Shown: positions 1-43,080, counted from the stretch's first letter. The stretch is 64,000 bases of DNA from Amoebidium appalachense (GCA_963693365.1 CAVNZM010000003.1:12987252-13051251); one strand, 5' to 3'. The notes: generated from the sequence alone by a model not told the origin. Numbers and translations are program-made.

Positions 1-1136
1 CCCACACACAGAGGAGTACAAGACAGAAGTGCCCAGCCTTGTACGCCAGGATGCCGTAGACCAGTTCCTGTGGGCAGTTAAATCACAGCGAGCAAAGCGC
101 AGATATGCGGCCGGCAGAGCACCCGGACGACCAATAGTGGTGCGCTTTCGCAGCAAGAAGTGGGGCGACCAGTCGATCCTTGCTCCTCGTGCACTCCTCA
201 AGGTAGCCGATGGGTGTGTAGTGTTTACCCCACGCAGGTGTCCGGATGGAGGCCGGCTTAAGGCGGCAGAGCCGTTGACAATGACTGAAGTTACAGGTGA
301 CTGTCGCATGGTTTTGACACAGGATGGCAGAGTGTATCTACGAGTCACCACCAGCAAGCCCAGGGGCGACAACCAAGCCCCTCGTGGTGCTGCTGGCGAC
401 CAAGCTCCTCCACGGGTATGCTCACTCGATCCCGGTGTGCGCACCTTCCAGACAGTGTACGACCCTGCCTCCAGTACTGCAGTCCATGTGTGCAGAGGCG
501 ACATAGGCCGTATTTGCCGTCTACTCAAGCACATGGACACGTTGCAAGCCAGGGCTGCCAGCAAAGAAGTGGGGCACAAGCGGCGTCGCAGGATGAAGCG
601 GGCACTTGTGCGCATGCGCCGCCGCGTGCAAAACCTTCAAATGGACGCCCACTGGAAGACAGCAGGCTGGCTGACAGATGCATATGACGTGATTGTGCTT
701 CCATGGGTGGACACCACACGGATGACCATGAAGTCCACAAGAAAGCTCTCAAGCAAGGCCGTCAGAGCCATGGCCGGCTGGGCACACGGCAAGTTCCGGG
801 AACGCCTTGTGTACAAGGCCGAGGAAAAGGGCAAGACCGTCGTGTTTGTGGGCGAGCAATACACAAGCAAGACGTGTGGGCATTGTGGCGCCATCAAGAC
901 AAACCTGGGAGGGAGCAAGGTGTACAACTGTGCTGCTTGTGGCACAGTCTGTGACCGCGACATCAACGGGGCAAGAAACATCCTTCTACGTTCTTGCTCC
1001 CAGCGGCTGGGTACCCCCCAGCCTTTGCCTGTACCGGCCTAATGCTGGCGGACATCGAAGCATGGCTCTAGACGCTCTGTAGGGTTCTATAGGGTTGTTT
1101 ATTGTTATGTATAGATGTCATGCTAAACGGTATCAG
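1..1136 (+). mobile_element. IS607-Fanzor2 element copy 1 (5' part outside window; right end ...ctaaacggtatCAG)
   Basis: Near-identical inverted copy of 11678-12813; homology among three right ends stops after tatcag at 1136. Confidence 0.9.
29..1042 (+). CDS. Fanzor2 (TnpB-like RNA-guided nuclease), C-terminal part, frame intact
   Basis: RuvC-I SLDPGVRTF, VIVLP with relocated Glu in VGEQYTSKTC, Zn finger CGHC..CAAC, RuvC-III DRDINGARNI; true start is upstream of the window. Confidence 0.93.
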   Translation: MPSLVRQDAVDQFLWAVKSQRAKRRYAAGRAPGRPIVVRFRSKKWGDQSILAPRALLKVADGCVVFTPRRCPDGGRLKAAEPLTMTEVTGDCRMVLTQDGRVYLRVTTSKPRGDNQAPRGAAGDQAPPRVCSLDPGVRTFQTVYDPASSTAVHVCRGDIGRICRLLKHMDTLQARAASKEVGHKRRRRMKRALVRMRRRVQNLQMDAHWKTAGWLTDAYDVIVLPWVDTTRMTMKSTRKLSSKAVRAMAGWAHGKFRERLVYKAEEKGKTVVFVGEQYTSKTCGHCGAIKTNLGGSKVYNCAACGTVCDRDINGARNILLRSCSQRLGTPQPLPVPA

Positions 1137-1156
1137 TGCTTGCATTGTTGATTTCC
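1004..1156 (+). ncRNA. Predicted omega-RNA scaffold plus guide (tgcttgcattgttgatttcc); 5' boundary approximate
   Basis: Conserved 3' end with stems ggctggg/cccagcc, agcatggc/gtcatgct and ctctgtag/ctataggg; position is typical of TnpB/Fanzor omega-RNA. Confidence 0.65.
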
Positions 1157-1171
1157 AGGTTGACGTTGTTG

Positions 1172-1208
<37 letters not shown>

Positions 1209-1361
1209 TGGGCTGCTATGTTGTACATTGAGGCAGCAAATGTGCTGGTACGGCTTTTATATACACCATATGCTCGATAAAAGCGCCATAACGTCCACGG
1301 AGACCTTGTGAGTGCTGCCGACCATGTGGACGTTTTGGTGCTCTTTATGCCCCCACCAGGA

Positions 1362-1467
1362 CCAATAAAACCTTTCCTCTATGGTAGAGAGGAAAGTAGT
1401 GATGTCATTTGACACATTATGGGCCAATTAGAAAGTACCTCTCTGGTAGAGGAACTTTTTTGATTGA
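1362..1467. repeat. Two CCAAT-initiated hairpin units (second is a 44-bp CCAAT..ATTGA palindrome)
   Basis: Stems ctttcctct/agaggaaag and aaagtacctct/agaggaacttt. Confidence 0.6.
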
Positions 1468-1742: not shown

Positions 1743-1797
<55 letters not shown>

Positions 1798-2473: not shown

Positions 2474-3673
2474 TCAGCAGCCACTCGTTGACTCTGCATG
2501 CTGCTGCTGTGGCGCCGGGGAGGCCCCTCCCACCACCAACTTCAGGCCATCCGCCAGCTCCTCCCTCCCCAGCCGGTGCATGTGCGCTATGCCATTCCAC
2601 TCTGTGTTGCTCTCATTGTCGTAGAACAGCCGAAACACGGCCATGCGCTCGTCGCCAAAGAAGACGTTGTCATACTTCCTGCATGCCTCCACTGCCGCTG
2701 CGAGTGACTTCAGGCGGTCACCAAAATTGGCCTTTACAAGCTGCCCGTCTATGCGGAAGGCGTGCGGGTTGAAACGTAGGAAGGCCACCGGCAGGCCATA
2801 TGCCAACGCCTGGTTGTACATGCGCGCCCACTCGCACGTGCTGGAGTAGTCTCTGTGCTGGTTCTCATCCACTTCCACTATGACCACGTGTGTCGCCATG
2901 TCGTAGTACAGGTCCGGCCGTGTTTTCTCCTGGCACTCGTTATGTACCTGCCTGTTGTGGCCGGCGGGAGGGCCAATGTGCACGGACAGGTGCTTGAGGA
3001 CTTTGATCTCGGGGCGGGCGTCGCTCCACCGCTTGCGTCTCGTGGACTCGGGGTCGCAGTGGCTGCACAGCCTATTTTTGCCACCTGTGAATGTCAACGT
3101 ACACCCAATGCAGAAATACCTTGTGTCGCAGAGTCTGCACTGCGGTTTTCGCTTGCCGTGCACGCAGATACGGCTGCCATTGCACTGGACACAAATCGAT
3201 TTGTTTTTGTTGTGACAGCAAATGCCTGTCCCGTGACAAGCCTTGCAGTAATATCGTATCACGTCGTGTGGGCATATAGAACTGCCCTTGCACGACTTGC
3301 ATCGTGCTTTTTGTATGTTGTGTGGGCACACCTGGCTACCTCCGCAAGCTCTACAAATGCTTTTTTGCCTGTTGTGTGGGCAGAGCCTTATTTTACCGCC
3401 GTTGCAGGCCCGGCGCTGTGCTTTTTGTTTTTTCGGAGCCTTGGAGCAGATACTGCTCCCCGTGCACCTCTTGCAATCGGCTTTTCGCCGGTTGTGCGAG
3501 CAGACTCCCGATCCATGGCAGTCGATGCAAGTTTCCTTTCGCCGTTTGTGTCTACACATCTCTGTCCCTAGGCAGTCGATGCATCGGCTTCGGCGCCGCT
3601 TGTGTTGGCATATGCCCTTCCCACCACACAAAACACATCTGTCTGGTCTGCTACGGCCATGAGGGCAGGCCAT
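2474..3673 (-). CDS. Cys/His zinc-repeat protein with C-terminal PD-(D/E)XK-like endonuclease
   Basis: About 9 CxHxxxKxxCxxCxGxxIC repeats followed by RPDLYYD..VIVEVDENQH and FLRFNP, an architecture common in NCLDVs. Confidence 0.8.
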   Translation of the reverse strand: MACPHGRSRPDRCVLCGGKGICQHKRRRSRCIDCLGTEMCRHKRRKETCIDCHGSGVCSHNRRKADCKRCTGSSICSKAPKKQKAQRRACNGGKIRLCPHNRQKSICRACGGSQVCPHNIQKARCKSCKGSSICPHDVIRYYCKACHGTGICCHNKNKSICVQCNGSRICVHGKRKPQCRLCDTRYFCIGCTLTFTGGKNRLCSHCDPESTRRKRWSDARPEIKVLKHLSVHIGPPAGHNRQVHNECQEKTRPDLYYDMATHVVIVEVDENQHRDYSSTCEWARMYNQALAYGLPVAFLRFNPHAFRIDGQLVKANFGDRLKSLAAAVEACRKYDNVFFGDERMAVFRLFYDNESNTEWNGIAHMHRLGREELADGLKLVVGGASPAPQQQHAESTSGC

Positions 3674-4381: not shown

Positions 4382-5980
4382 ATGCTAGGCGCACCAGTGC
4401 TCCGCAACAAATGGATGTGCGTCGCAGGCAGTGCAGATGGTGCAGATGGTGGCTCTGCCAAGAAGCCCCTTGTCACTGGTTATACTGAAACACAGATACA
4501 ATGCTTTGCAAACGCAGACACGCACACACCCCCACACAAATTCTTTATTGCAGAAGACTGCTGGAAAAAGGGCGTGGTAAAGAAACGATTCCGCTCGGCG
4601 GCAACCGTGGAGGACTTCATCTGCGCGCTGACTGACCTGTGCCGGCAAGGCGGCCGCCCCCACTGCTACGAGCTGTGCCGCACAGAGGCCGAGCTGAGCT
4701 TCTTCCTCGACATCGAGGGGGTACACGAGAGCCCGGATGGGCGTTCCGAGGTGGACAGTGCGCGCGATGCGGTGGTGGCATGTGTGCAGCAGTTGGCCAT
4801 ACACGAGCTTGGCATTCCTGCGTGGGCCTCCAGCACGGTGGTGGTCAGCCAGGGGCACCGGACCGTGGTCAAGGACGGCGACACCAAGTACAAGACGTCC
4901 TACCACGTCATTGTGCCGCACCTGAGGTTCGCGGACATGGACGCACTCCGCGCGTTCATACACGTACTCCATGCCGTTCTCCCAGACCCGCACAGGCAGT
5001 ATGTGGACTGGGGTGTCTACACAAACAATCGCATGCTACGCACCATCTTTTTGAGCAAGTTGGATGACCCGACACACACGCCGCTGTTGCCCGTGGACGC
5101 CACCCCTTATCCGTTGCCGCTGTACTTTGCGTCACGTGCGAGGGTGCCAGGGGACGTTGTGGTGCGCACACAGGCCATCCTTGACGCTGCCGTTCGCGTG
5201 GCACCGGAGGCAGATTTGGCGAGCAAGAAGCCCGGTGCCGCTGCCGCCCCCTCCAGGAAACGCAAGGCCAGCAGTGATGCTGACACCGACCATCATGATC
5301 CAACGCCGAGCAGGGGGGCACATGTGGCCGTCACGGTTGACAAAGTCGACGAGGAGGCCATCCTTGCAGCAGTTAACCTCCTTGTTGACAGTATTGACGA
5401 GCACCACAAGGGCATCGGGGTTGCAAGGGGGAACAAGCCAGGCCTGTACATTTCCAGGCGCAAGGGGCAGCGCATATGCCTCTTTGGACCCAGGCATGAC
5501 AGCAACGGCTTCTACATCACCATCGAAAAAGACGGCTCGGTAATCTACCGGTGCCATTCCCAGTCCTGTCACGGCAAGCAGCAGTGTATTGGGGTGGTTG
5601 CATGCGGAGAGGCCCACACACTCTTCCAGTTTGCCGAGCCCACGGTGCAGCAGGTCGCGGCGATGCAGGTGCTGCTGCTGCAGGAGAACGTCGTGGACAG
5701 CACGCTGTTGCGCTTCTGTGGGGCACAGACTCGGGAGGGGGCGTTGGCCCTGGGGTATGCCATGCGCAGCTCCATCACCCCGCTGCTCAGCGGAGCAGAC
5801 AAGCAGATGGTGTGGCTCGCGTGGCTGCAGACGCACACCGACCCGGAGCAGTATGGCGCAGAGGGTGCGCGTGTGTGGGGGCAGCGGCAGTGGGCATTGA
5901 TGAACACCTCGAGCGGCGGCGGGGTGAAGGGCTACTCCTATGCCACGGTCGCGTGGGTTGCGCACAAGACCGCCCCGTAA
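4382..5980 (+). CDS. AEP primase (PrimPol/UL52-like) with Zn finger and PriCT-like tail; N-terminal half of a split fusion
   Basis: Motifs FFLDIE, SYHVI, DWGVYTNNRMLR and C..HDSN..YRCHSQSC. Confidence 0.85.
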   Translation: MLGAPVLRNKWMCVAGSADGADGGSAKKPLVTGYTETQIQCFANADTHTPPHKFFIAEDCWKKGVVKKRFRSAATVEDFICALTDLCRQGGRPHCYELCRTEAELSFFLDIEGVHESPDGRSEVDSARDAVVACVQQLAIHELGIPAWASSTVVVSQGHRTVVKDGDTKYKTSYHVIVPHLRFADMDALRAFIHVLHAVLPDPHRQYVDWGVYTNNRMLRTIFLSKLDDPTHTPLLPVDATPYPLPLYFASRARVPGDVVVRTQAILDAAVRVAPEADLASKKPGAAAAPSRKRKASSDADTDHHDPTPSRGAHVAVTVDKVDEEAILAAVNLLVDSIDEHHKGIGVARGNKPGLYISRRKGQRICLFGPRHDSNGFYITIEKDGSVIYRCHSQSCHGKQQCIGVVACGEAHTLFQFAEPTVQQVAAMQVLLLQENVVDSTLLRFCGAQTREGALALGYAMRSSITPLLSGADKQMVWLAWLQTHTDPEQYGAEGARVWGQRQWALMNTSSGGGVKGYSYATVAWVAHKTAP

Positions 5981-8188
5981 ACTGTTGGACGGTACGGCAC
6001 CGAGGCTGTGGGGAGGGCCATCGAGTCCCTGTTTGGCTTTCAGAATTTCACAGAGCCCGACAGCGGCTATGACTTGCATGCATACCACACGGAGGGTGCT
6101 ACAGGGAGGCACCCACCCTCCACCACGGACATACCCGGCCACCCCGAGTCGCCGCCCCCCTACGTCTACCCGCTGCAGCAGTATCTGCTCAAGTATGCAT
6201 ACAGCGTCATCGTGCTCCAATCCGGCCTGGGCACGGGCAAGACCACCCGGTCACTGGAGGTCATCCGCAGCAAGGTGGCTGCCGGCGGCAGCGTGGTGAT
6301 TGTGTCCCCGCGCGTGTCCTACAGCAACACCATTCTTCAGGTGGTGTATGACGCCATGCCTGATGCCCGTATCGTCGACTACCGCAAGGCCAACAAGGCC
6401 GTCATGCAGGCCGCGCAGATCCTTGTTGTGCAGGTCGAGTCCCTCCACCGAGTCGCGGCTGCCGGTGTCCCCAAGCCGTCGTTGCTGATGCTGGATGAGT
6501 GCACCTCAATCGCGGCGGAGTGCAGCTCCCTCCAGACACACCGGACCAAGCTGGAGGCCAACATGAACGCGCTGATGTGGTTGCTGCAAAACAGCCAGAC
6601 CGTCATTCTTGCCGACGCCTTCGTCGACGGCCGCGCCAAGGTGTTGGCCGACATAGCCCGGAACGGGCCCGGGGAATCCGATGGCGGGAGCGCTGCAACG
6701 CCCAAACGGGCACTGTTTGCCTACAACGGCGGGGTTGGCGAAAAACGGTGTGTTGTGCGTCTCCCAGCGCGCATTCCCGGGGCGCCGGCGGGTGTGACCC
6801 CCTTGGAAGTGGAGGCCGTGAAGCTACTGGATGAAGGGTTGCGGGTGTTTGGGGTGGCAACTGGAGTGGACACCATTGGCCGCCTGCTGCAGTACTGCAT
6901 GGAGCACGTCCCCTCGGTCAAGGAGCATCACATCGTCTACACCGGCAACGGCAGGGTGCTCCAGGGTGCCAACCACGGCCAGATCAGCAGCAAGACCAGT
7001 GTCAATCAGCAGTGGGGAGAAAAGCAGCTGGTGCTGACTACCCCCACCATCACCGTCGGCCTCAACTACGACTCAGACAAGCTGTTTGACGCTGTGTTGC
7101 TGAACACGTCCAACGAGAGCTGCACGGCGCGAGACATTGCGCAAACACTCATGCGTGTCCGCCGCCTCACCTCCGGCATCGTGCTGTGGAGGCACCTGTA
7201 CATGCCCAAGCCCGGCGCCCCTGTGTCCCTGCATCCCAGCGTGGTGCGGCGCGACACGCTGAACGACGCCATCATCAACGGCTACAAGTGGATAAACGAC
7301 TCGCCGCTGCTGCCCCTCTTTGTGCTCAACAGGACGGAGGTGTGCATCAACAGGGAACGCTTCGACCTTGCACTGCTTCACCATGTCGAAACGATGGGAT
7401 GGACGGTCGAGGATAGGCGGGGAGAGAAGCGCGACATGCTCGCAGCAACGGCAGCACAGATGCTTGACGGCCTTCAGTGTCCTCCTTTCGACTCTATACC
7501 GGACGTGCCCCCTGAGGTTGTCGCGAGAATGGATCGGAGCCGCCTGACCCCAGAAGAGAGCCTTGCCGTCGTGAAGTCTGCTGTCATCGAGAGGTGCGCA
7601 GCTATCAATCCGGCATTAATAGACAGCGTTGGAGCGGCGAGAATGCTCTACAACGGCTCGTCTGGCCACCCTATTCGCATGCTGAAAGCGTTGAATGTGG
7701 CCGAAACACCGGTGATGATAGCCAATGGGTGCCAACCCGGTAACCCCGAAGCGCATGTCGTTTGGAAAATACTTTGCATGTTTGATTCGCTGACTGACCA
7801 GGGCAGCGGCACGAAAGTTCGCCCAAAGTGGCGTGATGTGGAGCTCAATCCCAGCTGCATAACACCTGGATTCATGGGCAACATGGCTGCACTTCTCAAC
7901 CACCTGTCTGTGTTGCGAGGCGGCCGCGAGGCCGCTGTACGGGTTGAAAAAACCAAGGACGCGCATGGAAACGACGTGGTGACATACAATTTGGGTGAAT
8001 TAATGGAACTTGCTAGTCGATACCTCGAGGAGCACACTGGTGGTTCTATTATCGGATCCCGCACAAAGAAGGTTAGTTTGTACAACGGCAAACGGAGAAA
8101 TGTGTGTGTTGGGTATCGCCTATCCATGTGCAGCGAAGAACTTGCCGTGCCTCTGAATATGCTGATGGATGGTCTGGTTTTGGTTTGA
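5981..8188 (+). CDS. UL9/origin-binding-protein-like SF2 helicase; in-frame continuation of the primase after one TAA
   Basis: Motifs SGLGTGKTT, SPRVS, VESLHR, LDECTS, TPTITVG and QTLMRVRRL; same frame as the 4382 ORF. Confidence 0.85.
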   Translation, partial: TVGRYGTEAVGRAIESLFGFQNFTEPDSGYDLHAYHTEGATGRHPPSTTDIPGHPESPPPYVYPLQQYLLKYAYSVIVLQSGLGTGKTTRSLEVIRSKVAAGGSVVIVSPRVSYSNTILQVVYDAMPDARIVDYRKANKAVMQAAQILVVQVESLHRVAAAGVPKPSLLMLDECTSIAAECSSLQTHRTKLEANMNALMWLLQNSQTVILADAFVDGRAKVLADIARNGPGESDGGSAATPKRALFAYNGGVGEKRCVVRLPARIPGAPAGVTPLEVEAVKLLDEGLRVFGVATGVDTIGRLLQYCMEHVPSVKEHHIVYTGNGRVLQGANHGQISSKTSVNQQWGEKQLVLTTPTITVGLNYDSDKLFDAVLLNTSNESCTARDIAQTLMRVRRLTSGIVLWRHLYMPKPGAPVSLHPSVVRRDTLNDAIINGYKWINDSPLLPLFVLNRTEVCINRERFDLALLHHVETMGWTVEDRRGEKRDMLAATAAQMLDGLQCPPFDSIPDVPPEVVARMDRSRLTPEESLAVVKSAVIERCAAINPALIDSVGAARMLYNGSSGHPIRMLKALNVAETPVMIANGCQPGNPEAHVVWKILCMFDSLTDQGSGTKVRPKWRDVELNPSCITPGFMGNMAALLNHLSVLRGGREAAVRVEKTKDAHGNDVVTYNLGELMELASRYLEEHTGGSIIGSRTKKVSLYNGKRRNVCVGYRLSMCSEELAVPLNMLMDGLVLV

Positions 8189-10508: not shown

Positions 10509-10869
10509 GTACACATAAACCGATATTTGAAATGAAAATTTGAATTTTGGTCGATCAGGGTCTGCAGGGTTCGAATCTGTGATATTTATTCAATCAAAAG
10601 CATTGAATTACGCCCGTATTCGATTTTGATTGGGTTTTCGTGATTTTGATCTCGGATAGGCAGGAACGAAATTCCAATTGAAAGACCGGCCTTTCGTGTG
10701 ATTGTTTTTGGGATTTTGATTTGATCCTTTTTTGATCGGTGGAGTTTGTGATTCAAATGCAAATCAAAAATTGTTGGTATAAAAATCAAATTTGCCGTTC
10801 AACAGCTTATGGTCGATAATTTTGATGTCACTATTGTATAAGTGTGAAGGTCTCAATTATTTTTTTGTA

Positions 10870-11570
10870 TGATGAGTAGCTCACATGGGTCACATGGATA
10901 AAAGGGGTCAACTTTGAAGGGCCATATCTCGGCTCCCAGTGGGCCGTTTTTCTTGAAAAAAAAAACCAGATAAAGCTCACATCGAGCTCTTTTAGAAAAC
11001 GTTGTTTACATGCTTCCGGCATGCCGTCTACGTACTACACAGCAGCGATCGGCGGCGCGCAGGCCGGATTCGCGCATATGGACAGCCTGAAACTGCTGAG
11101 CCACATTCCTGAGTGATAAGCCGTATGGGCCAAAACATGGTCCTTTGATATCTGATCAAACCGAGCCTTGTACAGCCTCTGCAATTATATATAAATAGCA
11201 TATAGAATATATACACTGCATGTACATAGGCTCCTCCATTTAAGATAGCTCATCCAATTGGTTCCAAACCACGTCTCCTGTCACCTCAGGAGCAATTTTT
11301 GCGCACCACCAGAAGAATCGAGTTTGCCCGTCAATGTTGGTGACGTCATATGGTGTTGAATTTGCCAATGCTCACGACCATATCGTACTATGCATTTTAG
11401 TACGTGATATATAGCATACAATATTGCATATAAAATGCTATATATATAATATCGTACAATTATCGTATATCATTATTATATATAATAGCATATAAAATAT
11501 ATACACTGCATGTGTATGTACATACGTATACACTCCTCTATTTACGGTAACTCATCTGATAGGCTCCGGA
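10870..11570. repeat. Diverged copy of the modules that form the 36716-39540 foldback structure
   Basis: Shares gagtagctcac..aactttgaagggccatatctcggctcccagtgggccg and cctgtcacctcaggagca. Confidence 0.9.
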
Positions 11571-11657
11571 TCAATCGTGATTGGGGTGGCACGAAAGGAC
11601 TGGGTTGTCTCCGCCCAGGAGTTTCCTCAAAGTTGACGTGGCTCTGGGCAGATATGA

Positions 11658-11810
11658 AGGTGCACAATCATTGTCGACTGATACCGTTTAGCATGACATC
11701 TATACATAACAATAAACAACCCTATAGAACCCTACAGAGCGTCTAGAGCCATGCTTCGATGTCCGCCAGCATTAGGCCGGTACAGGCAAAGGCTGGGGGG
11801 TACCCAGCCG
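11658..11810 (-). ncRNA. Predicted omega-RNA of copy 2 (guide tcgacaatgattgtgcacct)
   Basis: Same scaffold as copy 1, different flank. Confidence 0.65.
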
Positions 11811-13163
11811 CTGGGAGCAAGAACGTAGAAGGATGTTTCTTGCCCCGTTGATGTCGCGGTCACAGACTGTGCCACAAGCAGCACAGTTGTACACCTTGCT
11901 CCCTCCCAGGTTTGTCTTGATGGCGCCACAATGCCCACACGTCTTGCTTGTGTATTGCTCGCCCACAAACACGACGGTCTTGCCCTTTTCCTCGGCCTTG
12001 TACACAAGGCGTTCCCGGAACTTGCCGTGTGCCCAGCCGGCCATGGCTCTGACGGCCTTGCTTGAGAGCTTTCTTGTGGACTTCATGGTCATCCGTGTGG
12101 TGTCCACCCATGGAAGCACAATCACGTCATATGCATCTGTCAGCCAGCCTGCTGTCTTCCAGTGGGCGTCCATTTGAAGGTTTTGCACGCGGCGGCGCAT
12201 GCGCACAAGTGCCCGCTTCATCCTGCGACGCCGCTTGTGCCCCACTTCTTTGCTGGCAGCCCTGGCTTGCAACGTGTCCATGTGCTTGAGTAGACGGCAA
12301 ATACGGCCTATGTCGCCTCTGCACACATGGACTGCAGTACTGGAGGCAGGGTCGTACACTGTCTGGAAGGTGCGCACACCGGGATCGAGTGAGCATACCC
12401 GTGGAGGAGCTTGGTCGCCAGCAGCACCACGAGGGGCTTGGTTGTCGCCCCTGGGCTTGCTGGTGGTGACTCATAGATACACTCTGCCATCCTGTGTCAA
12501 AACCATGCGACAGTCACCTGTAACTTCAGTCATTGTCAACGGCTCTGCCGCCTTAAGCCGGCCTCCATCCGGACACCTGCGTGGGGTAAACACTACACAC
12601 CCATCGGCTACCTTGAGGAGTGCACGAGGAGCAAGGATCGACTGGTTGCCCCACTTCTTGCTGCGAAAGCGCACCACTATTGGTCGTCCGGGTGCTCTGC
12701 CGGCCGCATATCTGCGCTTTGCTCGCTGTGATTTAACTGCCCACAGGAACTGGTCTACGGCATCCTGGCGTACAAGGCTGGGCACTTCTGTCTTGTACTC
12801 CTCTGTGTGTGGGATGGTGGTGTTGTTGATAAATCGCTTTCGAAACACCGTTCTGTTAGTCTCGCCGGTCTCGGCAAACAACCCCACACACTGATTGAAT
12901 ATTTTGCGAACGACACCAAACGTCTTTCGCAGCCACAACATCTGCGCTTTGGTGGGGTGTAGACGTATGGACCGGCACCGTGTCAGCCCCTCTGCATTGG
13001 CTTTGAGAGATGCCACATCCACCCCCATAGCCTCATAATCCTCCAGCGTCGAAGGCCGTGTCTCCCTGGCCTTCATCTTCTTGGTCACCCGCTTGCTGGC
13101 GGTCGTCTTCAGGCGCTTTGTGTGGTTTGCGGCGTCTCTTTTGGCCAGTTTGGTGCTTTCCAT
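11772..13163 (-). pseudogene. Fanzor2 with nonsense mutation CGA>TGA at 12471-12473 (start codon inferred, MESTKLAKR)
   Basis: RSIRLHPT..LRKTFGVVRKIFN N-terminal motif; copy 1 reads VYLRVT where this copy reads VYL*VT. Confidence 0.88.
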
Positions 13164-13755
13164 ACTTGCGACGTCCGTGATGTTTACAGATGAAATGGGT
13201 GGTGACAGCAATGAGGTCTTCCGCGAGCTCTTCATGGTCGGGGCCGTCACTACCACAGAGAACCACGACCTTGACGCCATATCGCTCAAGGAGCCACCAG
13301 AGAAGGTCGCCGGCGAGTCTGCAGAGTCGGTCTTTGTAGGTAACCACAACCTCTGCGACAGCTCCCTCGCTTGCTCGTTCCAAAAGGGACAACAGGCCTC
13401 GCCTCTTAAAGTTGACACCACTCCCGACATCCGAGATGACCTCGTGACTGGGATACCGTGCACGGATAAAGTCAATCTGTCGCTGGAGGTCCCCTTTCTG
13501 CTTTGCAGAGGAGACCCGTGCATAGGCAATGTGGGCTCTTCGTCTGGGTGTGGTCTCTTCACTCCCCGATAGCTTTGCCACGTCATTCCAGAGGTACAGA
13601 CGGGTGTTTGCCGGGGTCCGAACGGAGCCAATCCTCCTGGTGTCTGCCCACCGTCTGAGAGTGGCAGTGGTGACACCAAGCCGCTCCCTGACGACGCCGG
13701 CTGGGACATACTTTGCGTCCTCGGGTGTGCCCGGGGAGTACCTGTGTCCGCCCAT
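13033..13755 (-). CDS. tnpA: IS607-family serine recombinase TnpA (MerR-like HTH plus SR domain)
   Basis: LGVTTATLRRW, IAYARVSSAKQKGDLQRQ, DVGSGVNFKRRGL, VVVTYKDRLCR, ELAEDL. Confidence 0.95.
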   Translation of the reverse strand: MGGHRYSPGTPEDAKYVPAGVVRERLGVTTATLRRWADTRRIGSVRTPANTRLYLWNDVAKLSGSEETTPRRRAHIAYARVSSAKQKGDLQRQIDFIRARYPSHEVISDVGSGVNFKRRGLLSLLERASEGAVAEVVVTYKDRLCRLAGDLLWWLLERYGVKVVVLCGSDGPDHEELAEDLIAVTTHFICKHHGRRKYGKHQTGQKRRRKPHKAPEDDRQQAGDQEDEGQGDTAFDAGGL

Positions 13756-14141
13756 AGCTGCATCAACCAGCGACTCTTTACATATGCCCCGATTATTTTT
13801 CTGACAACATCCAAAAGTTGCAAAATTGGCCAGTTTCGCTCCGTAGATATGGCCATGTTTATTGTAGTTTGTGTGTGGCTGGCCATGTCAAACCGGTGAC
13901 ATGGACTGCATTTTGTCATGTATGTGGTCGTTGAAAGCTTTTTACACAAATGCACAATTGCAGTGTCCACTGAGAATATATTGTCATTGTTGGTTAGAAA
14001 TGTTATAAATGCCATAAGCTGTGCGCCGGCTGTCGCCGGCGCCAAAACATAACGAGACAGTTATTGATGTTGGGTTGTGTGGTTGTTACCTCCCAGGCCT
14101 CCCCCCCTCCCCCCCCCCCCCCCTCCCCCCCCCCCCCCAGC

Positions 14142-19275: not shown

Positions 19276-19310
19276 CAGCTTATGGCATTTATAGCATTAC
19301 TAACCAACAA
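19276..19310 (+). mobile_element. Orphan 35-bp left-end tip of the IS607-Fanzor element
   Basis: cagcttatggcatttatagcattactaaccaacaa, one mismatch to the 29167 left end. Confidence 0.8.
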
Positions 19311-19428
19311 CGTGAAATAATAAACAAAAATGCATTGATTTTTTGTCCTGTGTGTATTGCACATGAGCACGCACAGAGTGTACACGTGTATTTTTTTCTG
19401 TTGTGGTAGAGAAATCTCTGGGCATGCA

Positions 19429-20379
19429 ATGGCCCTATGCATCAATGTTACCGGGTTTTGCAAGTTGGCACAAACCAGAGTTTATCCAACAGACCGGTGC
19501 CTGACTGGGTTGGTCCATGGAGGCAACCGTGAGCTGCTGCGGATGCACTTCCCAGGACTACACCAGCAGGTTGTGTACAATGACCTGAAAAACAACTGCT
19601 ATGTGGTGGCAAGGCATGTGACACGCTATATTCGTGACCGTGTGATTGACGAGGGGGCCACACTGCTCCTCAACGATGTGCCTGCAGGCAGGGGTGTGTG
19701 CCAGGCACGGGCCCTGGCATATGGATACACGCGTGAGTGGGCGCTGAGACGCAACGAGTATGAGCAGCTGTTTGAAAGACTGCTGCGCAGTAGGAAGTTT
19801 GTGTTCTTCGAGCCGGGTGAGAGGGAGGACCAGTCATGTGGGAAGCTTGCCGGAGCCCTCCGCTCTCTGCGCTGGATGGCACGGTTTGGAGAGTGGGGAA
19901 ATGAGCGAAGTTTTGCTGCACTGGGCTGTGTGACAGAGGACCCCGAGGCCCTGTTTGATGCCATGGTACGGATGATGGGGGTGAAGGGTGAGCAGGCCGC
20001 ACTGGATCTTTTTGAAAGGGAGCACGGCGCAAAAATAGTTAGCCGACATGCAAGTGTGGACACGAAATTTCTGTGGAGGGTGCGCGGGTGTGCACCGGTC
20101 AAGCTGGTAGGGCAAATTGATGGCGTGAACTGTGCAGCCGAGGATTTGCGTTTGGTGGAGGTCAAGTGCCGCCTGTACGGATTTCTCAGCATGCCACACG
20201 AGAAAGAATTGCTCCAGGTGCATGCATACATGTATGCAACCAAAATGTGGGCGTGTGACTTTGTGCAGTTTTACCAGGGCCAAATCAAAGTCATCAAAGT
20301 TGAGTTTGACAAGGTGTTTTGGGAGAGGGGGGTGCAACGTGGCCGAGAACGGTTGTGGCGGATGTTAGAATGCCCATAG
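19429..20379 (+). CDS. YqaJ/lambda-exonuclease-like PD-(D/E)XK nuclease, divergent
   Basis: GQIDGV..LVEVKCR..ELLQVHAYM..CDFVQ..FDKVFW. Confidence 0.75.
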   Translation: MALCINVTGFCKLAQTRVYPTDRCLTGLVHGGNRELLRMHFPGLHQQVVYNDLKNNCYVVARHVTRYIRDRVIDEGATLLLNDVPAGRGVCQARALAYGYTREWALRRNEYEQLFERLLRSRKFVFFEPGEREDQSCGKLAGALRSLRWMARFGEWGNERSFAALGCVTEDPEALFDAMVRMMGVKGEQAALDLFEREHGAKIVSRHASVDTKFLWRVRGCAPVKLVGQIDGVNCAAEDLRLVEVKCRLYGFLSMPHEKELLQVHAYMYATKMWACDFVQFYQGQIKVIKVEFDKVFWERGVQRGRERLWRMLECP

Positions 20380-28951: not shown

Positions 28952-29167
28952 AACATCCAAAAGCTGCAAAATTGGCCAGTTTCACTCCGTAGATATGGCC
29001 ATGTTTATTGTAGTTTGTGTGTGGCTGGCCATGTCAAACCGGTGACATGGACTACATTTTGTCGTGTATGTGTTCGTTGAAAGCTTTTTACACAAATGCA
29101 CAATTGCAGTGTCCACTGAGAACATATTGCCATTGTTGGTTAGTAATGTTATAAATGCCATAAGCTG
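28952..29167 (-). mobile_element. Orphan 216-bp left end of the IS607-Fanzor element
   Basis: Colinear with 13806-14021, mostly transition differences. Confidence 0.92.
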
Positions 29168-36550: not shown

Positions 36551-36551
36551 C

Positions 36552-36715
36552 GAGGCCGAGCAGAAGGTGGTTTGGTGGAAAGAGGCCAACCTTGCCCTGC
36601 TTGTCAAGGTGCTGGATAAAATTAACGAACCAATCAAAGGAAAGGTGGGAATTCCCACTATTCCTCCCATTGGCCAACTGAGCATCGATGACGTCATCGA
36701 CATCACCAACGCCAT
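36552..36715 (+). pseudogene. KilA-N gene fragment with 44-bp palindrome
   Basis: AEQKVVWWKEAN..KINEPIKGKVGIPTIPPIGQLSIDDVIDIT. Confidence 0.82.
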
Positions 36716-39540
36716 AGATTAGCATATAGAATATATACACTTCGTGCATATACACTCCTCTACTAGTTACGATAACTCATCCGTATGTGTATGAGTAGCT
36801 CACACGGGTCACATGGATACAAGGGGTCAACTTTGAAGGGCCATATCTCGGCTCCCAGTGGGCCGTTTTTCTTGAAAAAAAAAACCAGATATAGCTCACA
36901 TCGAGCTCTTTCAGAGCAAGTTGTTTACCTGCTTGCGGCATGCCGTCTACGCACGTACACAGCAGCGATCGGCCGCGCGCAGACCGGATTCACGCATATG
37001 CACAGCCTGAAACTGCTGAGCCACATTCCTGAGTGATCCGCCAACATTGACGTGCAAACTCGGTTCTTTCTGGTGGTGTGCAAAATGCTCCTGAGGTGAC
37101 AACTTCAATATGCAAAATGCTCCTGAGGTGACAACTTCATTATGTAAAATGCTCCTGAGGTGACAGGTCACATGTTCGTAACCAATCGGATGAGTTTACT
37201 TACATTGCAATACAAAACGAGTGTACGTGTTTGCTTGATATGTATAATATATTATTTACACACATGCTTATTATGCACCAATATATATATATATATATAT
37301 ATATATTTATTTGGCATTGCAAGTACCAATATGCCTAACATACACTCCATGCACATACACTCCTCTACTTTCGATAACTCATCCAATTGGTTACGAACAT
37401 GTGACCTGTCACCTCAGGAGCATTTTACATAATGAAGTTGTCACCTCAGGAGCATTTTGCATATTGAAGTTGTCACCTCAGGAGCATTTTGCACACCACC
37501 AGAAAGAACCGAGTTTGCACGTCAATGTTGGCCGATCACTCAGGAATGTGGCTCAGGAATGTGGCTCAGCAGCTTCAGGCTGTGCATATGCGCGAATAGT
37601 GTTGTATATAACAATGAATATAATATTGCGTATAATATTTTATATAGTATCGTACATTTATCGTACATAGTATAATATATAATAGCATATAGAATATATA
37701 CACGTCGTGCACATACACTCCTCTGTTTACAATAACTCATCCGTACGTGTAGGAGTAGCTCACACGGGTCACATGGATAAAAGGGGTCAACTTTGAAGGG
37801 CCATATCTCGGCTCCCAGTGGGCCGTTTTTCTTGAAAAAAAAAACCAGATATAGCTCACATCGAGCTCTTTCAGAGCAAGTTGTTAACATGCTTGCGGCA
37901 TGCCGTCTACGCACGTACACAGCAGCGATCGGCGGCGCGCAAACCGGATTCACGCATATGCACAGCCTGAACTGCTGAGCCACATTCCTGAGTGATCGGC
38001 CAACATTGACGTGCAAACTCGGTTCTTTCTGGTGGTGTGCAAAATGCTCCTGAGGTGACAACTTCATTATGTAAAATGCTCCTGAGGTGACAACTTCATT
38101 ATGTAAAATGCTCCTGAGGTGACAACTTCATTATGTAAAATGCTCCTGAGGTGACAGGTCACATGTTCGTAACCAATCGGATGAGTTATCGTAAATAGAG
38201 GAGTGTATATTAGGCATATTGGTACTTGCAATGCCAAATAAATATATATATATATATATATTGGTGCATAATAAGCATGTGTGTAAATAATATATTATAC
38301 ATATCAAGCAAACACGTACACTCGTTTTGTATTGCAATGTAAGTAAACTCATCCGATTGGTTACGAACATGTGACCTGTCACCTCAGGAGCATTTTACAT
38401 AATGAAGTTGTCACCTCAGGAGCATTTTACATATTGAAGTTGTCACCTCAGGAGCATTTTGCACACCACCAGAAAGAACCGAGTTTGCACGTCAATGTTG
38501 GCCGATCACTCAGGAATGTGGCTCAGCAGTTTCAGGCTGTGCATATTGTGAATCCGGCTATCGTAAATAGAGGAGTGTATGTGCACGACGTGTATATATT
38601 CTATATGCTATTATATATAATACTATGTACGATAAATGTACGATACTATATAAAATATTATACGCAATATTATATTCATTATCATATACAACAATATTCG
38701 CGCATATGCACAGCCTGAAACTGCTGAGCCACATTCCTGAGTGATCGGCCAACATTGACGTGCAAACTCGGTTCTTTCTGGTGGTGTGCAAAATGCTCCT
38801 GAGGTGACAACTTCATTATGTAAAATGCTCCTGAGGTGACAACTTCATTATGTAAAATGCTCCTGAGGTGACAGGTCACATGTTCGTAACCAATCGGATG
38901 AGTTATCGTAAATAGAGGAGTGTATATTAGGCATATTGGTACTTGCAATGCCAAATAAATATATATATATATATATTGGTGCATAATAAGCATGTGTGTA
39001 AATAATATATTATACATATCAAGCAAACACGTACACTCGTTTTGTATTGCAATGTAAGTAAACTCATCCGATTGGTTACGAACATGTGACCTGTCACCTC
39101 AGGAGCATTTTACATAATGAAGTTGTCACCTCAGGAGCATTTTACATATTGAAGTTGTCACCTCAGGAGCATTTTGCACACCACCAGAAAGAACCGAGTT
39201 TGCACGTCAATGTTGGCCGATCACTCAGGAATGTGGCTCAGCAGTTCAGGCAGTGCATGTGCGTGAATCCGGTCTGCGCGCCGCCGATCGCTGCTGTGTA
39301 CGGCGTAGACAGCATGCCGCAGGCAAATAAAGAACGTGTTCTGAAAGAGCTCGATGTGAGCTATATCTGGTTTTTTTTCCCAAGAAAAACGGCCCACTGG
39401 GAGCCGAGATATGGCCCTTCAAAGTTGACCCCTTTTATCCATGTGACCCGTGTGAGCTACTCATACACATACGGATGAGTTATCGTAACTAGTAGAGGAG
39501 TGTATGTGCACGAAGTGTATATATTCTATATGCTAATCTA
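36716..39540. repeat. 2.8-kb non-coding foldback structure of nested direct and inverted modules with ~480-bp terminal inverted repeats
   Basis: 36720-37200 is the reverse complement of 39060-39537; internal modules repeated in both orientations; 30-bp aaaatgctcctgaggtgacaacttca subrepeats. Confidence 0.92.
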
Positions 39541-39762
39541 TATAATACTATATACGATGATTGTAAGATAATATTGTACGCAATATTATATAAACTATTA
39601 TATACAATACCATATACAATATTGTATGCTATATATCACAAGACAAAATCAACACCGTATGACGTCACCAACATTGACGTGCAAATGGTGTGAAGGCACA
39701 CCTTTGTCATTGCGCCATTTCACGGGCTAAGCATGTGTGTGTGTGTGTGCAGCTCGACAGAG

Positions 39763-39889: not shown

Positions 39890-40231
39890 ATGATTGCAAA
39901 CTTGATTGTGTCAGCCTTGCTAACTCATAAAGCTTTGTTTGTTCTGGGTCCGTTGTTGATTGTGTCAATATGGGTCTGTGTGGCACTTTACAAACAATAC
40001 AACTTGAACAAAGAGCCAAAGGGTATCTCGCCACACGAAGATGCCAAACAGATGGCCACACATAATCACGCAAACACGGTCAGGCAAGATAATGTGCCAA
40101 ATCAAGGGCTGGAGTCTGTGGATACAAACATAGCCAAGCCCGGAACCACACCCAAGCATAGACTGTCTATGAATTCGGCTCTAAATTTGACCACTAGAGA
40201 ATTATTGGATAGAGTAAATGTCATGTGCTGA
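39890..40231 (+). CDS. Small membrane protein
   Basis: N-terminal hydrophobic segments. Confidence 0.5.
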   Translation: MIANLIVSALLTHKALFVLGPLLIVSIWVCVALYKQYNLNKEPKGISPHEDAKQMATHNHANTVRQDNVPNQGLESVDTNIAKPGTTPKHRLSMNSALNLTTRELLDRVNVMC

Positions 40232-41953
40232 GCTGATTCGTATTAGTTTGCTTCTATATTTCGTGTTTTGGTGAGTGCATTTCGGGGGTTTTCTTGCATA
40301 GTGATGCCGGGGTCTAAATGGGGTATGAGGAGATTAATCAGTGGTATGGGGAGAATCTGATGCAGCGGCGGCTGATTGTTTGGTGCGCGCGTGCATGCCC
40401 GATGCCTCTGCGTACTCTCCATGTTATATGTTGTATTGCTTCTTGCTGTGTGCTTGGCGAGACCCATGTTGCCTGCTCGCGTGTGTGTATGCTTATATGT
40501 ATTGTGAGTAAAGGTGTGTACGTGTTGTAGTGCTGTAGGTGTCTCAGGTGGCGGTAGCCAATGGTGTGGAGTGCGTGTAGTCTGTGGGGGTGTAGCTTGT
40601 CGTGGCGTGGTGTAAACAGCCCCGTCGTGGGGGACGTCGGTGACCGTGTTGCAGGTATGAAGGTTTTATTAGAGGGTAGGCCGTCTCTTGGGTTGTTGTT
40701 GTTGTATGGGAGTTGTGTGGTGTTTTATTTTGCTGAGTTTTCTACTGGTGCCTGGCGTTTTCGACGTGTGTATGAGTCCTGTGTTGGCGACGTGTGTGGT
40801 TAGGGTCAGTGGAATAGAAAGTCCTGCTGCTGTCTGGGAGCTCGGCCCTCTGACGAGGGGGCTGGGGGGGGATCGAGGTGTAGTCATGGCAGTGGAAGGC
40901 CCCCACTGTTGTGAACCCCCGTCGTCAAAGGGCCTGGTGCTGAGGCCCCTTGGAGTGGCTGCCCTGGGCCTGGTGTTGAGGCCCTTTGGAGTGGCTGCCC
41001 GTAGTGTTGTTGAGTAGTGTTGTGGTGCCCAGTGCAGCAGTAGGCCTTAGACACACCGCTGGGTAGGGCACGGTTGGGGCGGAGGCATTCCCAAACCACC
41101 GGGACCTACGTAGTAGGAGTATTTGTCGGGTAGAGGAATGGCCAGCAAGAGAGTCTGGAGGTGTACGTCACATGAGTCTGGAGGTGTTCGTCACGGCATG
41201 TTTGGTTGTGTTAGGAATTCTTTGTGGATGCTGAGTGTGGTTGTATGGATGGGGTCTGTTATCATGTCTGTTGCTATGTTCCACTCGATATAACATTGTG
41301 CCAGGGGCATGGGGTTTTGGGTGCAGGTTGTGGACGGGGGCAGAGGTGCATCTACAGGGCAACGTCAGGGGCGGTTCATATTATCCTTGTTTTGGGGTTG
41401 GGTTGGGTATTAACCATGGTGGGGTGGTGTGTGGATGCATGTATATGTTTTATGTTATATGTTATATGTTGCTTCCTGCATGGTTAGCGGTAGTTGTAGT
41501 CGCTCAGCACATAACTTTATTTTGTTTTTAGGTAGTTTTTACTGAGGTGGAACTCAGTTATTTTCTGTGCGAGGGGGGAGTTGTCATGTGCTGAGCTGAT
41601 TCGTATTAGTTTGCTTCTATATTTCGTGTTTTGGTGAGTGCATTTCGGGGGTTTTCTTGCATAGTGATGCCGGGGTCTAAATGGGGTATGAGGAGATTAA
41701 TCAGTGGTATGGGGAGAATCTGATGCAGCGGCGGCTGATTGTTTGGTGCGCGCGTGCATGCCCGATGCCTCTGCGTACTCTCCATGTTATATGTTGTATT
41801 GCTTCTTGCTGTGTGCTTGGCGAGACCCATGTTGCCTGCTCGCGTGTGTGTATGCTTATATGTATTGTGAGTAAAGGTGTGTACGTGTTGTAGTGCTGTA
41901 GGTGTCTCAGGTGGCGGTAGCCAATGGTGTGGAGTGCGTGTAGTCTGTGGGGG
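40219..41953. repeat. 372-bp direct repeats (40219-40590 and 41582-41953) flanking a GT-rich non-coding segment
   Basis: Apparently identical copies offset by 1363 bp. Confidence 0.9.
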
Positions 41954-42220
41954 AGGGAGTGTTGTGATTGGCTGAATGTCACTGTGGTATTTGTCTGGCC
42001 AGTGGGCCGCGTGTCTGTGAAGTGTCTCGCGGGGTCGCGGGCTTTTCGAAGTTCTTCGGAGAACACGAAAAAAAGCTCGCTTCCCGCCCAACTCAAAGAA
42101 AAGTTTATACGTATACACAGTTTCGAGCCCCTTTAAGCGTGCAGATAGTTAGAGTAGTTTGTATACACTCTGTTTGATGCCACGACAGTAAACGCCGAAT
42201 ATCCAGAGCGACACATAACC

Positions 42221-42847
42221 GTGGCACCAATTGGCAAGAGCAGGACTTGGCAGGACGTTCTGGATGGTGTGGGCGAAACCCCGGAAGAGACAAGAACGAT
42301 CCAGGCAGAGAGAAGGCAACTAGATGCACGCATGAAGAGCAACAGAGCCCTGGCAATGAAGGAGCGCGATCGCTTTGGGATTGCCGGGGTGCCAGCAGAT
42401 TTATCAGAACCCAAGGCAGGTTATCTAAAGGAGTTCCCTCCCCAGATACAAAAAACCATGGTTTGGTGTGCATATTTGAAGAAACACGAATCTGTGTTTG
42501 ATCCAAGTCACAGGGAACAGCTTTCGTCCTTAACCAAATACACTATGGAACAACGGGCATGTTGGAACATGTTGGTGGATAAGTATGCCGCTGAATATCG
42601 TGAGGGTAACTTGGATGTAGATGATTCGGAGTGGATAGAACAGGAAGTACGAAATAGTGCTGAAAGTTTCAAAAAAGTCCTCCCTCTGGTGGCTGACCAT
42701 GAAGGTGTTCCGAGTATTTCTAGTCTTCTGTCATATGGAGATCTGCTGATTTTTGCTACAGGCCTATTTGAGAGACACATTACGATCTTGCAAATTAAAC
42801 TTGTGACACTGGCAGATACATACCACCTCAGACTGCCGGTTTTGTGA
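42221..42847 (+). CDS. Hypothetical protein (start uncertain)
   Basis: 208-codon open frame, helical charged composition. Confidence 0.45.
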   Translation: MAPIGKSRTWQDVLDGVGETPEETRTIQAERRQLDARMKSNRALAMKERDRFGIAGVPADLSEPKAGYLKEFPPQIQKTMVWCAYLKKHESVFDPSHREQLSSLTKYTMEQRACWNMLVDKYAAEYREGNLDVDDSEWIEQEVRNSAESFKKVLPLVADHEGVPSISSLLSYGDLLIFATGLFERHITILQIKLVTLADTYHLRLPVL

Positions 42848-42849
42848 CC

Positions 42850-43080
42850 CTGATACCGTTTAGCATGACATCTATACATAACAATAGACAACCCTATAGA
42901 GCCCTACAGAGAGTCTCGAGCCATGCTTCGATGTCCGCCAGCATTAGGCCGGTACAGGCAAAGGCTGGGGGAACCCAGCCGCTGGGAGCAAGAACGTGGA
43001 AGGATGTTTCTTGCCCCGTTGATGTCGCGGTCACAGACTGTGCCACAAGCAGCACAGTTGTACAGCTTGCTCCCTCCCAG
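42850..43080 (-). mobile_element. Right-end-only Fanzor remnant retaining the omega-RNA scaffold (guide ggtcacaaaaccggcagtct)
   Basis: Homologous to 11678-11909 with several substitutions. Confidence 0.92.

What the first reader, a model, noticed from the sequence alone, without database searches (positions are those of the whole stretch)
1..43080. IS607-Fanzor2 family with CAG-bounded ends and three different omega-RNA guides in one viral region
Seen: three right ends finish at tatCAG and diverge into different flanks (tgcttgcattg, tcgacaatgat, ggtcacaaaac). Three left ends begin CAGcttatggc after unrelated flanks (gca, aag, aaa). The ends share imperfect inverted motifs (atggcatttataacat versus atgacatctatacat). 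Established: IS607 TnpA is a serine recombinase using a short core, and TnpB/Fanzor guides derive from the right flank with a TAM matching the insertion motif. Inference: TAM is CAG, the crossover core lies within CAG (likely AG), and copy 1 may encode an active compact (~460 aa) nuclease usable by all three guides.
Basis: partly seen in the sequence, partly recalled or inferred. Interest (0 to 1): 0.7.

Follow-up and report, generated by a model that had tools for sequence, protein, structure and literature searches.

The report
Giant-virus jumping gene with guided nuclease
A small jumping gene in giant-virus-like DNA encodes a transposase and an RNA-guided-nuclease protein of an already known family (IS607/Fanzor2); its copies sit after the letters CAG, and it likely needs the four-letter signal ACAG to cut empty sites without cutting itself, which would be a new targeting signal for these compact gene editors.

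Summary
The element is real and belongs to a known kind: an IS607 serine transposase plus a Fanzor2 nuclease (closest solved structure: mimivirus ApmFz2), among giant-virus genes. The window holds one two-ended copy (with a premature stop in the nuclease), one copy cut by the window edge and three fragments. All window junctions read CAG. Sequencing-run contigs add further CAG junctions and an element-free form with a single CAG. An RNA pseudoknot that covaries in 12 of 16 related families supports AG as the crossover core.

(1) The right end itself ends TCAG, so a plain CAG TAM would cut every filled site. Left junctions read ACAG (5) or GCAG (1), so the TAM is likely ACAG/RCAG.
(2) The 463-aa protein lacks the conserved RuvC-R segment; the nuclease is at least 502 aa, likely 552 or more.
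(3) The inverted end motif is no better than chance.
(4) The third guide's scaffold has a weakened pseudoknot, and no guide has a target in the window.
(5) Copy 2's two flanks appear to come from different sites.

Several guides per family is the default for these elements. Activity and expression are untested.

The parts
11678..14021 (-). Copy 2: the only two-ended element in the window, 2344 bp from left CAG to right CAG
13033..13755 (-). tnpA: IS607 serine transposase, 240 aa (MerR-type HTH + resolvase domain)
   Evidence: Pfam PF00239/PF00376; NCBIfam NF033518 156 bits against cut-off 110
11772..13430 (-). Fanzor2 gene, 552 codons from the ATG at 13430, overlapping tnpA by 398 nt in another frame; premature stop at 12473-12471 in this copy. 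Other possible starts: 13763 (663 aa), 13280 (502 aa). The start at 13163 (463 aa) lacks RuvC-R
11678..11812 (-). Predicted omega-RNA scaffold of copy 2 (about 135 nt, overlapping the last codons of the nuclease gene); pseudoknot between 11804-11799 and 11685-11680; the last two bases (AG) unpaired
   Evidence: fold z = -4.7, 0 of 200 shuffles as stable; covariation in relatives; 5' end inferred
11658..11677 (-). Guide 2 (right flank of copy 2)
   Evidence: guide length assumed 20 nt
1..1136 (+). Copy 1: 3' 1136 bp of the element, cut by the window start; nuclease frame open (2-1042); 2 differences from copy 2
1137..1156 (+). Guide 1 (right flank of copy 1)
42850..43080 (-). Right-end fragment RE3, 232 bp, 96.6% identical; holds the whole scaffold length but the pseudoknot partner is altered; abuts a tandem-repeat array
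42830..42849 (-). Guide 3 (right flank of RE3); the same junction is present in runs X4, X6 and X18
28952..29167 (-). Left-end fragment LEc, 216 bp, 96.3% identical; junction G-CAG
   Evidence: same flank in run X16
19276..19310 (+). Left-end fragment LEb, about 36 bp; junction A-CAG; no right end downstream in the window
   Evidence: same form in run X1
14022..14049 (-). Left flank of copy 2 with an 8-bp hairpin (14023-14042); seen without the element in runs X16, X18 and X19

Best explanation
This is an IS607-family transposon encoding a serine transposase and a Fanzor2 protein among giant-virus genes; it likely excises and inserts by crossing over at the AG of a CAG site, and its nuclease, loaded with an RNA predicted from the right end plus the flank, would cut empty sites carrying a likely ACAG (RCAG) signal so that repair copies the element back. 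Shown from sequence: gene identities, catalytic residues, CAG at the junctions, an element-free CAG form, several insertion sites across samples. Inferred from covariation: the six bases before the final AG pair in the RNA pseudoknot, so the right end's C and T are fixed scaffold bases and AG is the core. Inferred from self/non-self logic: filled sites present TCAG+guide and empty sites (A/G)CAG+guide, so the nuclease should read position -4. Inferred from the family: homing. The window shows a decaying state: one copy with a premature stop, one-ended fragments and a copy whose flanks appear to come from two sites. Confidence about 0.95 for the family, 0.85 for the AG core and 0.6 for a 4-nt TAM.
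For: TnpA passes the IS607 cut-off. The nuclease has DPG D349, the shifted E491, a C4 finger and RD D526; best PDB match is ApmFz2 by sequence (E 3e-28), profile (E 6e-80) and fold (E 7e-23). Left junctions: 6 of 6 distinct flanks read CAG, with A at -4 in 5 and G in 1 (3 in the window; 2 read directly and 1 inferred from a mixed consensus); chance of 5 or more A in 6 is 0.004 on window frequencies. Right junctions of close copies: 5 of 5 CAG (3 in the window, 1 read in X16, 1 inferred in X4/X6). Element-free form: X19 record 11 continues copy 2's left flank through ACAG into other sequence. Relatives: in 16 of 16 families (41 loci) the left junction differs from the right end within the last 4 bases; 11 differ at -3, 2 at -2 and -4, and 3 only at -4 (purine versus T) as here. 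Pseudoknot: 12 of 16 families have a 5-bp or longer partner exactly 42 nt after the RuvC-III Asp codon that changes with the tail; ours has 6 bp at +51; foreign tails pair in 27 of 228 trials. Precedent for self-avoidance and homing: PMC10690162.
Against: No cleavage, excision or expression data. Characterised Fanzor2 TAMs are 3 nt, and ApmFz2 makes only minimal contacts upstream of its TAM (PMC11832414; PMC13565253). The -4 tally is small and biased: loose ends at place 14022 are A by construction, 34 and 12 loose-end rows were not shown, and X18 record 7 breaks at 14021 with its flank not shown. Absence of T at -4 in 6 sites has chance 0.39. No contig skips the element precisely in the 8 runs laid. 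The element-free continuation is not copy 2's right flank and rests on a 40-nt contig with 9 loose letters. A diverged sister right end (28 of 32 identical) breaks one base before the final G. In the tree the protein lies on a long branch and not with the '-4 only' families (one of the three had no row). Four of 16 families lack the pseudoknot partner in the window searched, and that window was chosen. Junctions of relatives were read by eye from pairs of loci.
Confidence: 0.7

Rival explanations
1. The TAM is simply CAG. Filled sites are spared by something else (transposase or RNA polymerase covering the right end, silencing), or are not spared, and self-cutting just outside the right end produces the fragments and mismatched flanks.
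For: All tested Fanzor2 TAMs are 3 nt. One left junction has G, not A. The A bias could be a transposase preference only. The window is rich in one-ended copies, and copy 2's flanks appear to come from two sites.
Against: 16 of 16 related families keep a left/right difference within 4 bases. CboTnpB and ISXfa1 discriminate TAM from right end by sequence. Right-end junctions here are intact in 5 of 5 close copies, one of them shared between samples.
Confidence: 0.2
2. The crossover core is CA, the TAM is RCA, and the G after it is the first, usually fixed, base of the guide.
For: This would restore discrimination at -3 as in known systems. The sister right end reads CA then C, and a paralogue of copy 2's left flank reads CAT.
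Against: The pseudoknot register puts the C in the scaffold stem and leaves exactly two unpaired terminal bases in 12 of 16 families. Across families those two bases vary (AG, GG, TG, AC) and match the left junction.
Confidence: 0.05
3. The family is a silent relic in this host: copies were brought in with viral DNA and are now decaying by CpG mutation, deletion and recombination, so the guides do nothing today. This is compatible with the best explanation as the past mechanism.
For: Both differences between copies 1 and 2 are CpG transitions (2 of 2), window CpG observed/expected is 0.63, and four of five window pieces are broken or partial.
Against: Copies 1 and 2 are 99.8% identical. Contigs of X2, X4, X6 and X9 read through the stop position, and insertion sites differ between samples. 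CpG changes are a minority in the older fragments (2 of 8, 0 of 7, 0 of 2).
Confidence: 0.3
4. The three guides form a small defence or inter-viral targeting repertoire used in trans by one nuclease.
For: Three different flanks behind near-identical scaffolds; RE3 is a scaffold without a gene, like described 'ghost' loci (PMC10432273).
Against: No CAG+seed target for any guide in the window at 8/0, 12/2, 16/4 or 20/6 length/mismatches. The guides are ordinary flanks. The RE3 pseudoknot is weakened. The rest of the genome could not be searched.
Confidence: 0.04

Closest known systems
ApmFz2 / ApmFNuc of Acanthamoeba polyphaga mimivirus IS607 (PDB 9B0L; PMC11832414, PMC10530073)
   Same: IS607 TnpA + Fanzor2 in giant-virus DNA, several copies, shifted RuvC-II glutamate, N-terminal domain with RuvC-R, pseudoknotted omega-RNA from the right end.
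   Different: About 20% identity in the fold alignment. TAM GGG (3 nt) versus CAG junctions with a likely fourth base here. Predicted scaffold about 135 nt versus over 200 nt. The copies here lie in repeat-rich, apparently decaying DNA.
CboIStron IS607 TnpAS/TnpB (PMC10690162) and ISXfa1 (PMC10711439)
   Same: Serine-recombinase crossover at a core dinucleotide, scaffold ending in the core, nuclease cutting the empty site, self-avoidance by a TAM/right-end mismatch.
   Different: GG core and discrimination at -3 (TGGG vs TCGG; GGG vs CGG). Here the core is AG and only -4 differs. No group I intron was found here (no Rfam match).
Bacterial pro-Fanzor IS607 elements (loci L079-L158) and viral-contig relatives (L001-L078)
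   Same: Same gene order and overlap (conserved FW..LW motif inside the tnpA match in 85 of 95 open frames), same right-end type (TCAG/TCGG/TCTG), same pseudoknot position.
   Different: At most 36-37% protein identity. Cyanobacterial families with the same TCAG right end insert after GAG/AAG/TAG, not CAG. None characterised in the papers read.
MmeFz2 (TAM TAG) and NlovFz2 (TAM CCG) (PMC10432273)
   Same: Fanzor2 nucleases with short TAMs; MmeFz2 also ends in AG.
   Different: Reported TAMs are 3 nt. Mollusc Fanzor2s sit in TIR/TSD elements without TnpA.
Fanzor families in the Chlamydomonas endogenous giant virus (10.1101/2024.09.03.611062)
   Same: Multi-copy, near-identical Fanzor elements plus fragments and guide-only pieces in integrated giant-virus DNA.
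   Different: Those are Fanzor1 with Mariner-type transposases, and they are shown to be expressed.

Membership tests
IS607 | TnpA serine recombinase with N-terminal HTH | tested here: met
   NF033518 above cut-off; MerR + Resolvase
IS607 | tnpB-type gene downstream of and overlapping tnpA | tested here: met
   NF040570 142 bits against cut-off 100; 398-nt overlap
IS607 | Matching core dinucleotide at both ends and in the target | tested here: met
   AG at 6 of 6 left and 5 of 5 close right junctions; single CAG in the element-free form; one diverged sister end is ambiguous
IS607 | No terminal inverted repeats and no target-site duplication | tested here: inconclusive
   No significant inverted repeat. 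CAG on both sides versus once in the empty form looks like an invariant 3-bp duplication; the pseudoknot argues that the right-end C belongs to the element
IS607 | Short repeated transposase-binding motifs near the ends | tested here: inconclusive
   ACAA/ACAT words recur at similar distances, but the similarity is at chance level
IS607 | Precise excision through a circular intermediate | not testable with these tools
   No joint skipping the element in 8 runs laid; contigs drop rare forms
Fanzor2 | RuvC-I DPG, glutamate shifted next to the C4 zinc finger, RuvC-III RD | tested here: met
   D349-P350-G351, E491, C498/C501/C516/C519, R525-D526; aligned to ApmFz2
Fanzor2 | N-terminal domain with RuvC-R segment | tested here: met
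   SWF (55-57 of the 552-aa frame) aligns in the profile to ApmFz2 residues 75-88, within RuvC-R 65-91; met only for a start at or before 13280
Fanzor2 | Pseudoknotted omega-RNA ending at the right end | tested here: met
   Computational only; weakened in RE3; RNA not observed
Fanzor2 | RNA-guided dsDNA cleavage next to a TAM | not testable with these tools
   Needs a TAM library assay
Fanzor2 | 3-nt, G-rich TAM (as summarised in PMC13565253) | tested here: inconclusive
   Junctions point to ACAG/RCAG; an inference, not a measurement
Fanzor2 | Encoded in a eukaryote or eukaryotic virus | tested here: met
   Neighbours VLTF3, YqaJ, PCNA, KilA-N, AEP, UL9-like helicase, DUF5767; virus lineage and host not identified

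The most novel reading that the evidence does not exclude
A Fanzor2 with a four-base, non-G-rich TAM (ACAG/RCAG). The omega-RNA pseudoknot fixes a C three bases from the right end, so an IS607 element that targets C-AG cannot tell self from empty site at -3 and must read -4. The same solution recurs in three bacterial families, giving a rule that predicts TAMs of this clade from the two ends alone. In addition, the nuclease frame stays open across the whole tnpA gene here and in most relatives, so both proteins may be read from one fully nested, dual-coding stretch.
Probability: 0.45. Interest if true: 0.55.

Novelty: new member of a known kind. Interest (0 to 1): 0.36.

Why it matters
IS607-Fanzor2 elements are known, so the element as such is ordinary. 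Its value is as a candidate compact RNA-guided nuclease with at most 37% identity to anything found, natural uninterrupted alleles, and a predicted TAM (ACAG/RCAG) not among the reported Fanzor2 TAMs I read (GGG, CCG, TAG). A longer TAM would test the view that Fanzor2 reads only three bases. The left/right comparison gives a cheap way to predict TAMs across the clade. Anyone testing the protein must start it upstream of 13280: the 463-aa form would likely be dead.

Tried and rejected
Whole-genome search: no genome is held for this window, so copy number, guide targets and empty sites outside the window were not searched. Close relatives: none in viral contigs by protein or left-end pattern or in metagenome contigs. 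No RNA holder listed among 24 runs; this says nothing on expression. Depth over the element was 3-4 times that of the flank in X2 and X4, but the tool warns that depth is no copy number, so it is not used. No Rfam match at E up to 1 over 11500-14100. Inverted end motif: rejected as chance. A 747-codon frame from the ATG just inside the left end: not conserved, since LEc and most run contigs have a stop at its codon 60, though one X9 contig matches copy 2. The N-terminal 143 aa alone found no PDB relative; only the profile did. Continuations seen in runs are not in the window. A partner right end for LEb: none at up to 8 mismatches in 30. Virus lineage: two VLTF3 searches found nothing; the profile-free HMMER search found 1778 relatives at up to 41% identity, and the 8 looked up carried no names. 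The Atlas gave no hit for ORF 14142-16454. The idea that the nested frame is a eukaryote-specific adaptation was rejected: it is as common in bacterial relatives (30 of 41) as in others. Inheritance of the -4 rule from the bacterial '-4' families was not supported by the tree. Earlier findings of this scan: three look-ups, none returned.
Full report
WHAT IS THERE. Mapping with the element as query gives five pieces: copy 1 (1-1136, +, cut by the window start), copy 2 (14021-11678, -, 2344 bp, the only one with both ends), a 232-bp right-end fragment (43080-42850, -), a 216-bp left-end fragment (29167-28952, -) and a left-end fragment of about 36 bp (19276-19310, +). Copies 1 and 2 differ at 2 of 1136 positions, both transitions at CpG sites; one makes a premature stop at 12473-12471 in copy 2. 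Neighbouring ORFs match giant-virus families: VLTF3, YqaJ, PCNA, KilA-N, AEP, UL9-like helicase and DUF5767 (46 ORFs scanned). Microsatellites, long G runs, CpG observed/expected of 0.63 and DNA runs of 137-205 million contig letters that hold the stretch suggest viral DNA integrated in a eukaryote. That is inferred; neither host nor virus lineage was identified.

THE GENES. tnpA (13755-13033) passes the NCBIfam IS607 transposase cut-off (156 bits against 110). The second gene, read with X at the stop, has the DPG aspartate, the glutamate shifted next to a C4 zinc finger and the RD aspartate, all conserved in a 40-row alignment. Its best solved relative is mimivirus Fanzor2 by sequence, profile and fold (model pLDDT 78.8; Foldseek E 7e-23). 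The best sequence relatives are only 23-41% identical over the aligned parts.

Upstream of it lie W17 (35 of 39 relatives), LWLP and SWF. The profile aligns the SWF segment to ApmFz2 residues 75-88, inside the RuvC-R subdomain that completes the RuvC fold and contacts the pseudoknot (PMC11832414, passages). The working protein must therefore start at 13280 (502 aa) or earlier, likely at 13430 (552 aa) or before. Part of this conservation could be a shadow of the overlapping tnpA; against that, the motif persists in 8 of 21 frames without a same-strand tnpA match and in P0010. Contigs of X2, X4, X6 and X9 read through the stop position while X1 has the stop, so uninterrupted alleles exist in nature. 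No single contig spans the whole gene.

THE JUNCTIONS. I laid 8 of the 24 listed runs; X1 may be the window's own source.
- Left junctions: three in the window (A, A, G before CAG), two more read directly (X9; X18/X19; both A) and one inferred from a three-contig consensus in X4/X6 (A). That is 6 of 6 CAG, 5 with A. Rows at that place are A by construction and 34 + 12 loose-end rows were hidden, so the tally is biased.
- Right junctions: three in the window, one new in X16 and one inferred in X4/X6, 5 of 5 ending TCAG. A diverged sister end (28 of 32 identical) breaks one base early and is ambiguous.
- Empty form: in X19 a 40-nt contig continues copy 2's left flank through ACAG into non-element sequence; paralogous forms read CAT (X16, X18, X19) or CTG (X19). 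This continuation is not copy 2's right flank and is not in the window, so copy 2 appears to join the left flank of one site to the right flank of another, by recombination or misassembly.
- No contig skips the element exactly.
The proposed inverted end motif is at chance level.

THE RNA. The last 135 nt fold well (z = -4.7, 0 of 200 shuffles) and match no Rfam family. From 158 related loci, pairwise alignment gave both ends for 16 families (41 loci; read by eye). In 12 of 16 the bases just before the last two pair with a stretch exactly 42 nt after the RuvC-III aspartate codon, and that stretch changes with the tail. Foreign tails pair in 27 of 228 trials; four families miss; the search window was set. 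Here the partner is at 11804-11799 (6 bp, 51 nt after the codon). This is the pseudoknot that IS607 TnpB needs (PMC10711439, passages). It leaves AG unpaired, supporting AG as the crossover core, and it fixes the T and C before it as scaffold. In the third right end the partner is altered to 3 contiguous pairs, so that guide is likely impaired. No guide has a CAG+seed target in the window.

MECHANISM. By family knowledge, IS607 TnpA excises the element as a circle, leaving a scarless joint, and TnpB cuts that joint to drive reinstallation (PMC10690162, section 6 and passages; GG targets without duplication in PMC6188088, passages). Those nucleases spare the filled site because the right end differs from the TAM at -3 (TCGG versus TGGG; CGG versus GGG). 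Here both junctions share CAG, so a 3-nt CAG TAM would make each right junction a perfect target. The only difference is at -4: A/G at empty sites, T at the right end. All 16 related families keep a difference within four bases, and three do so only at -4, purine versus T. The tree does not group this protein with them (126 rows, FastTree, long branch), so this would be convergence. I therefore predict a TAM of ACAG/RCAG (about 0.6). Against this, ApmFz2 makes few contacts upstream of its 3-nt TAM, a review gives Fanzor2 TAMs as 3-nt and G-rich (PMC13565253, passages), and the sample is small. Five-base TAMs do occur in another IS607 TnpB group (PMC11061315, passages).

COMPARISON AND NOVELTY. 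IS607-Fanzor2 elements in giant viruses were described in PMC3627910 (passages). Three mimivirus copies with flank-derived guides are in PMC10530073 (passages). Multi-copy Fanzor families with fragments in an endogenous giant virus are in 10.1101/2024.09.03.611062 (passages). Reported Fanzor2 TAMs are GGG, CCG and TAG. Searches listed no paper giving CAG or ACAG for a Fanzor2; 'ACAG' had 0 occurrences in the 16 listed. PMC10691335 (passages) added only classification. I saw no supplements; their locus tables could hold this protein. The element is thus a new member of a known kind, and 'three guides' is the default for such a family.

Two points go slightly further: the pseudoknot-forced reading of -4, and a nuclease frame that stays free of stops across the start of tnpA in 46 of 70 relatives against 0 of 70 for the third frame (open at or above the HTH start in 50 of 76). 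The second leaves the true start codon open.

VERDICT. Real, ordinary in kind, with a testable and somewhat unusual TAM prediction. Interest 0.36.

Noticed in passing
window 13763-13430 (-) and loci L001-L158: The nuclease frame is open across all of tnpA, with an ATG 8 nt before the tnpA ATG. Over the first 270 nt of tnpA the nuclease frame has no stop in 46 of 70 distinct relatives versus 0 of 70 for the third frame. Relatives are not independent. No paper with 'overlapping reading' among the IS607/Fanzor hits. P0008 has the TnpA HTH fused in frame to the nuclease.
   Followed up: partly
runs X1, X2, X4, X6, X9, X16, X18 on window 11679-11799, 12853-12944, 13235-13420: A diverged sister element (about 86-89% identical in the pieces laid) is present in the same samples; its right end breaks one base before the final G.
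   Followed up: partly
runs X6, X16, X18, X19 on window 13733-14022: A roughly 290-bp left-end variant with a 5-nt insertion continues into non-element sequence and sits behind two different flanks in different samples; possibly a mobile non-autonomous derivative.
   Followed up: no
window 14023-14042: A perfect 8-bp GC hairpin lies directly before copy 2's left junction. The flank occurs in several element-free variants reading CAG, CAT or CTG at the insertion point, like the end of another repeat.
   Followed up: partly
window 10803-10812 (+): A fourth CAGCTTATGG preceded by A, with no further similarity to the left end; chance or a remnant.
   Followed up: partly
window 1136/19276 (+) and 42850/29167 (-): On both strands an orphan left end follows a right end (18.1 kb and 13.7 kb apart), the arrangement expected if segments once lay between direct copies.
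   Followed up: no
window 10870-11560 and 36714-39613: A family of palindromic repeats; 36714-39613 forms a large inverted structure, and a member lies about 120 bp from copy 2's right end.
   Followed up: no
window 14142-16454 (-): 770-aa ORF with short G/A-rich repeats and a weak DUF2345 match, resembling a beta-helical spike (recalled likeness); no Atlas hit.
   Followed up: partly
window 2474-3673 (-): 399-aa ORF with many Cys/His repeats and a C-terminal 'EVDENQH' motif, like giant-virus zinc-finger endonucleases (recalled); no Pfam match.
   Followed up: no
window 4382-5980 and 6356-8188 (+): An AEP primase ORF followed by a herpes origin-binding (UL9-like) helicase ORF, possibly one split gene.
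   Followed up: no
window 19363-20379 (+): A 338-aa ORF with a weak PD-(D/E)XK match (E 0.011) starts 53 bp after the 36-bp left-end fragment.
   Followed up: no
window 43068-44140, 45701-46438, 47831-48698, 51654-52302, 53926-55118: Several tandem-repeat arrays with long G or C runs; the first truncates RE3.
   Followed up: no
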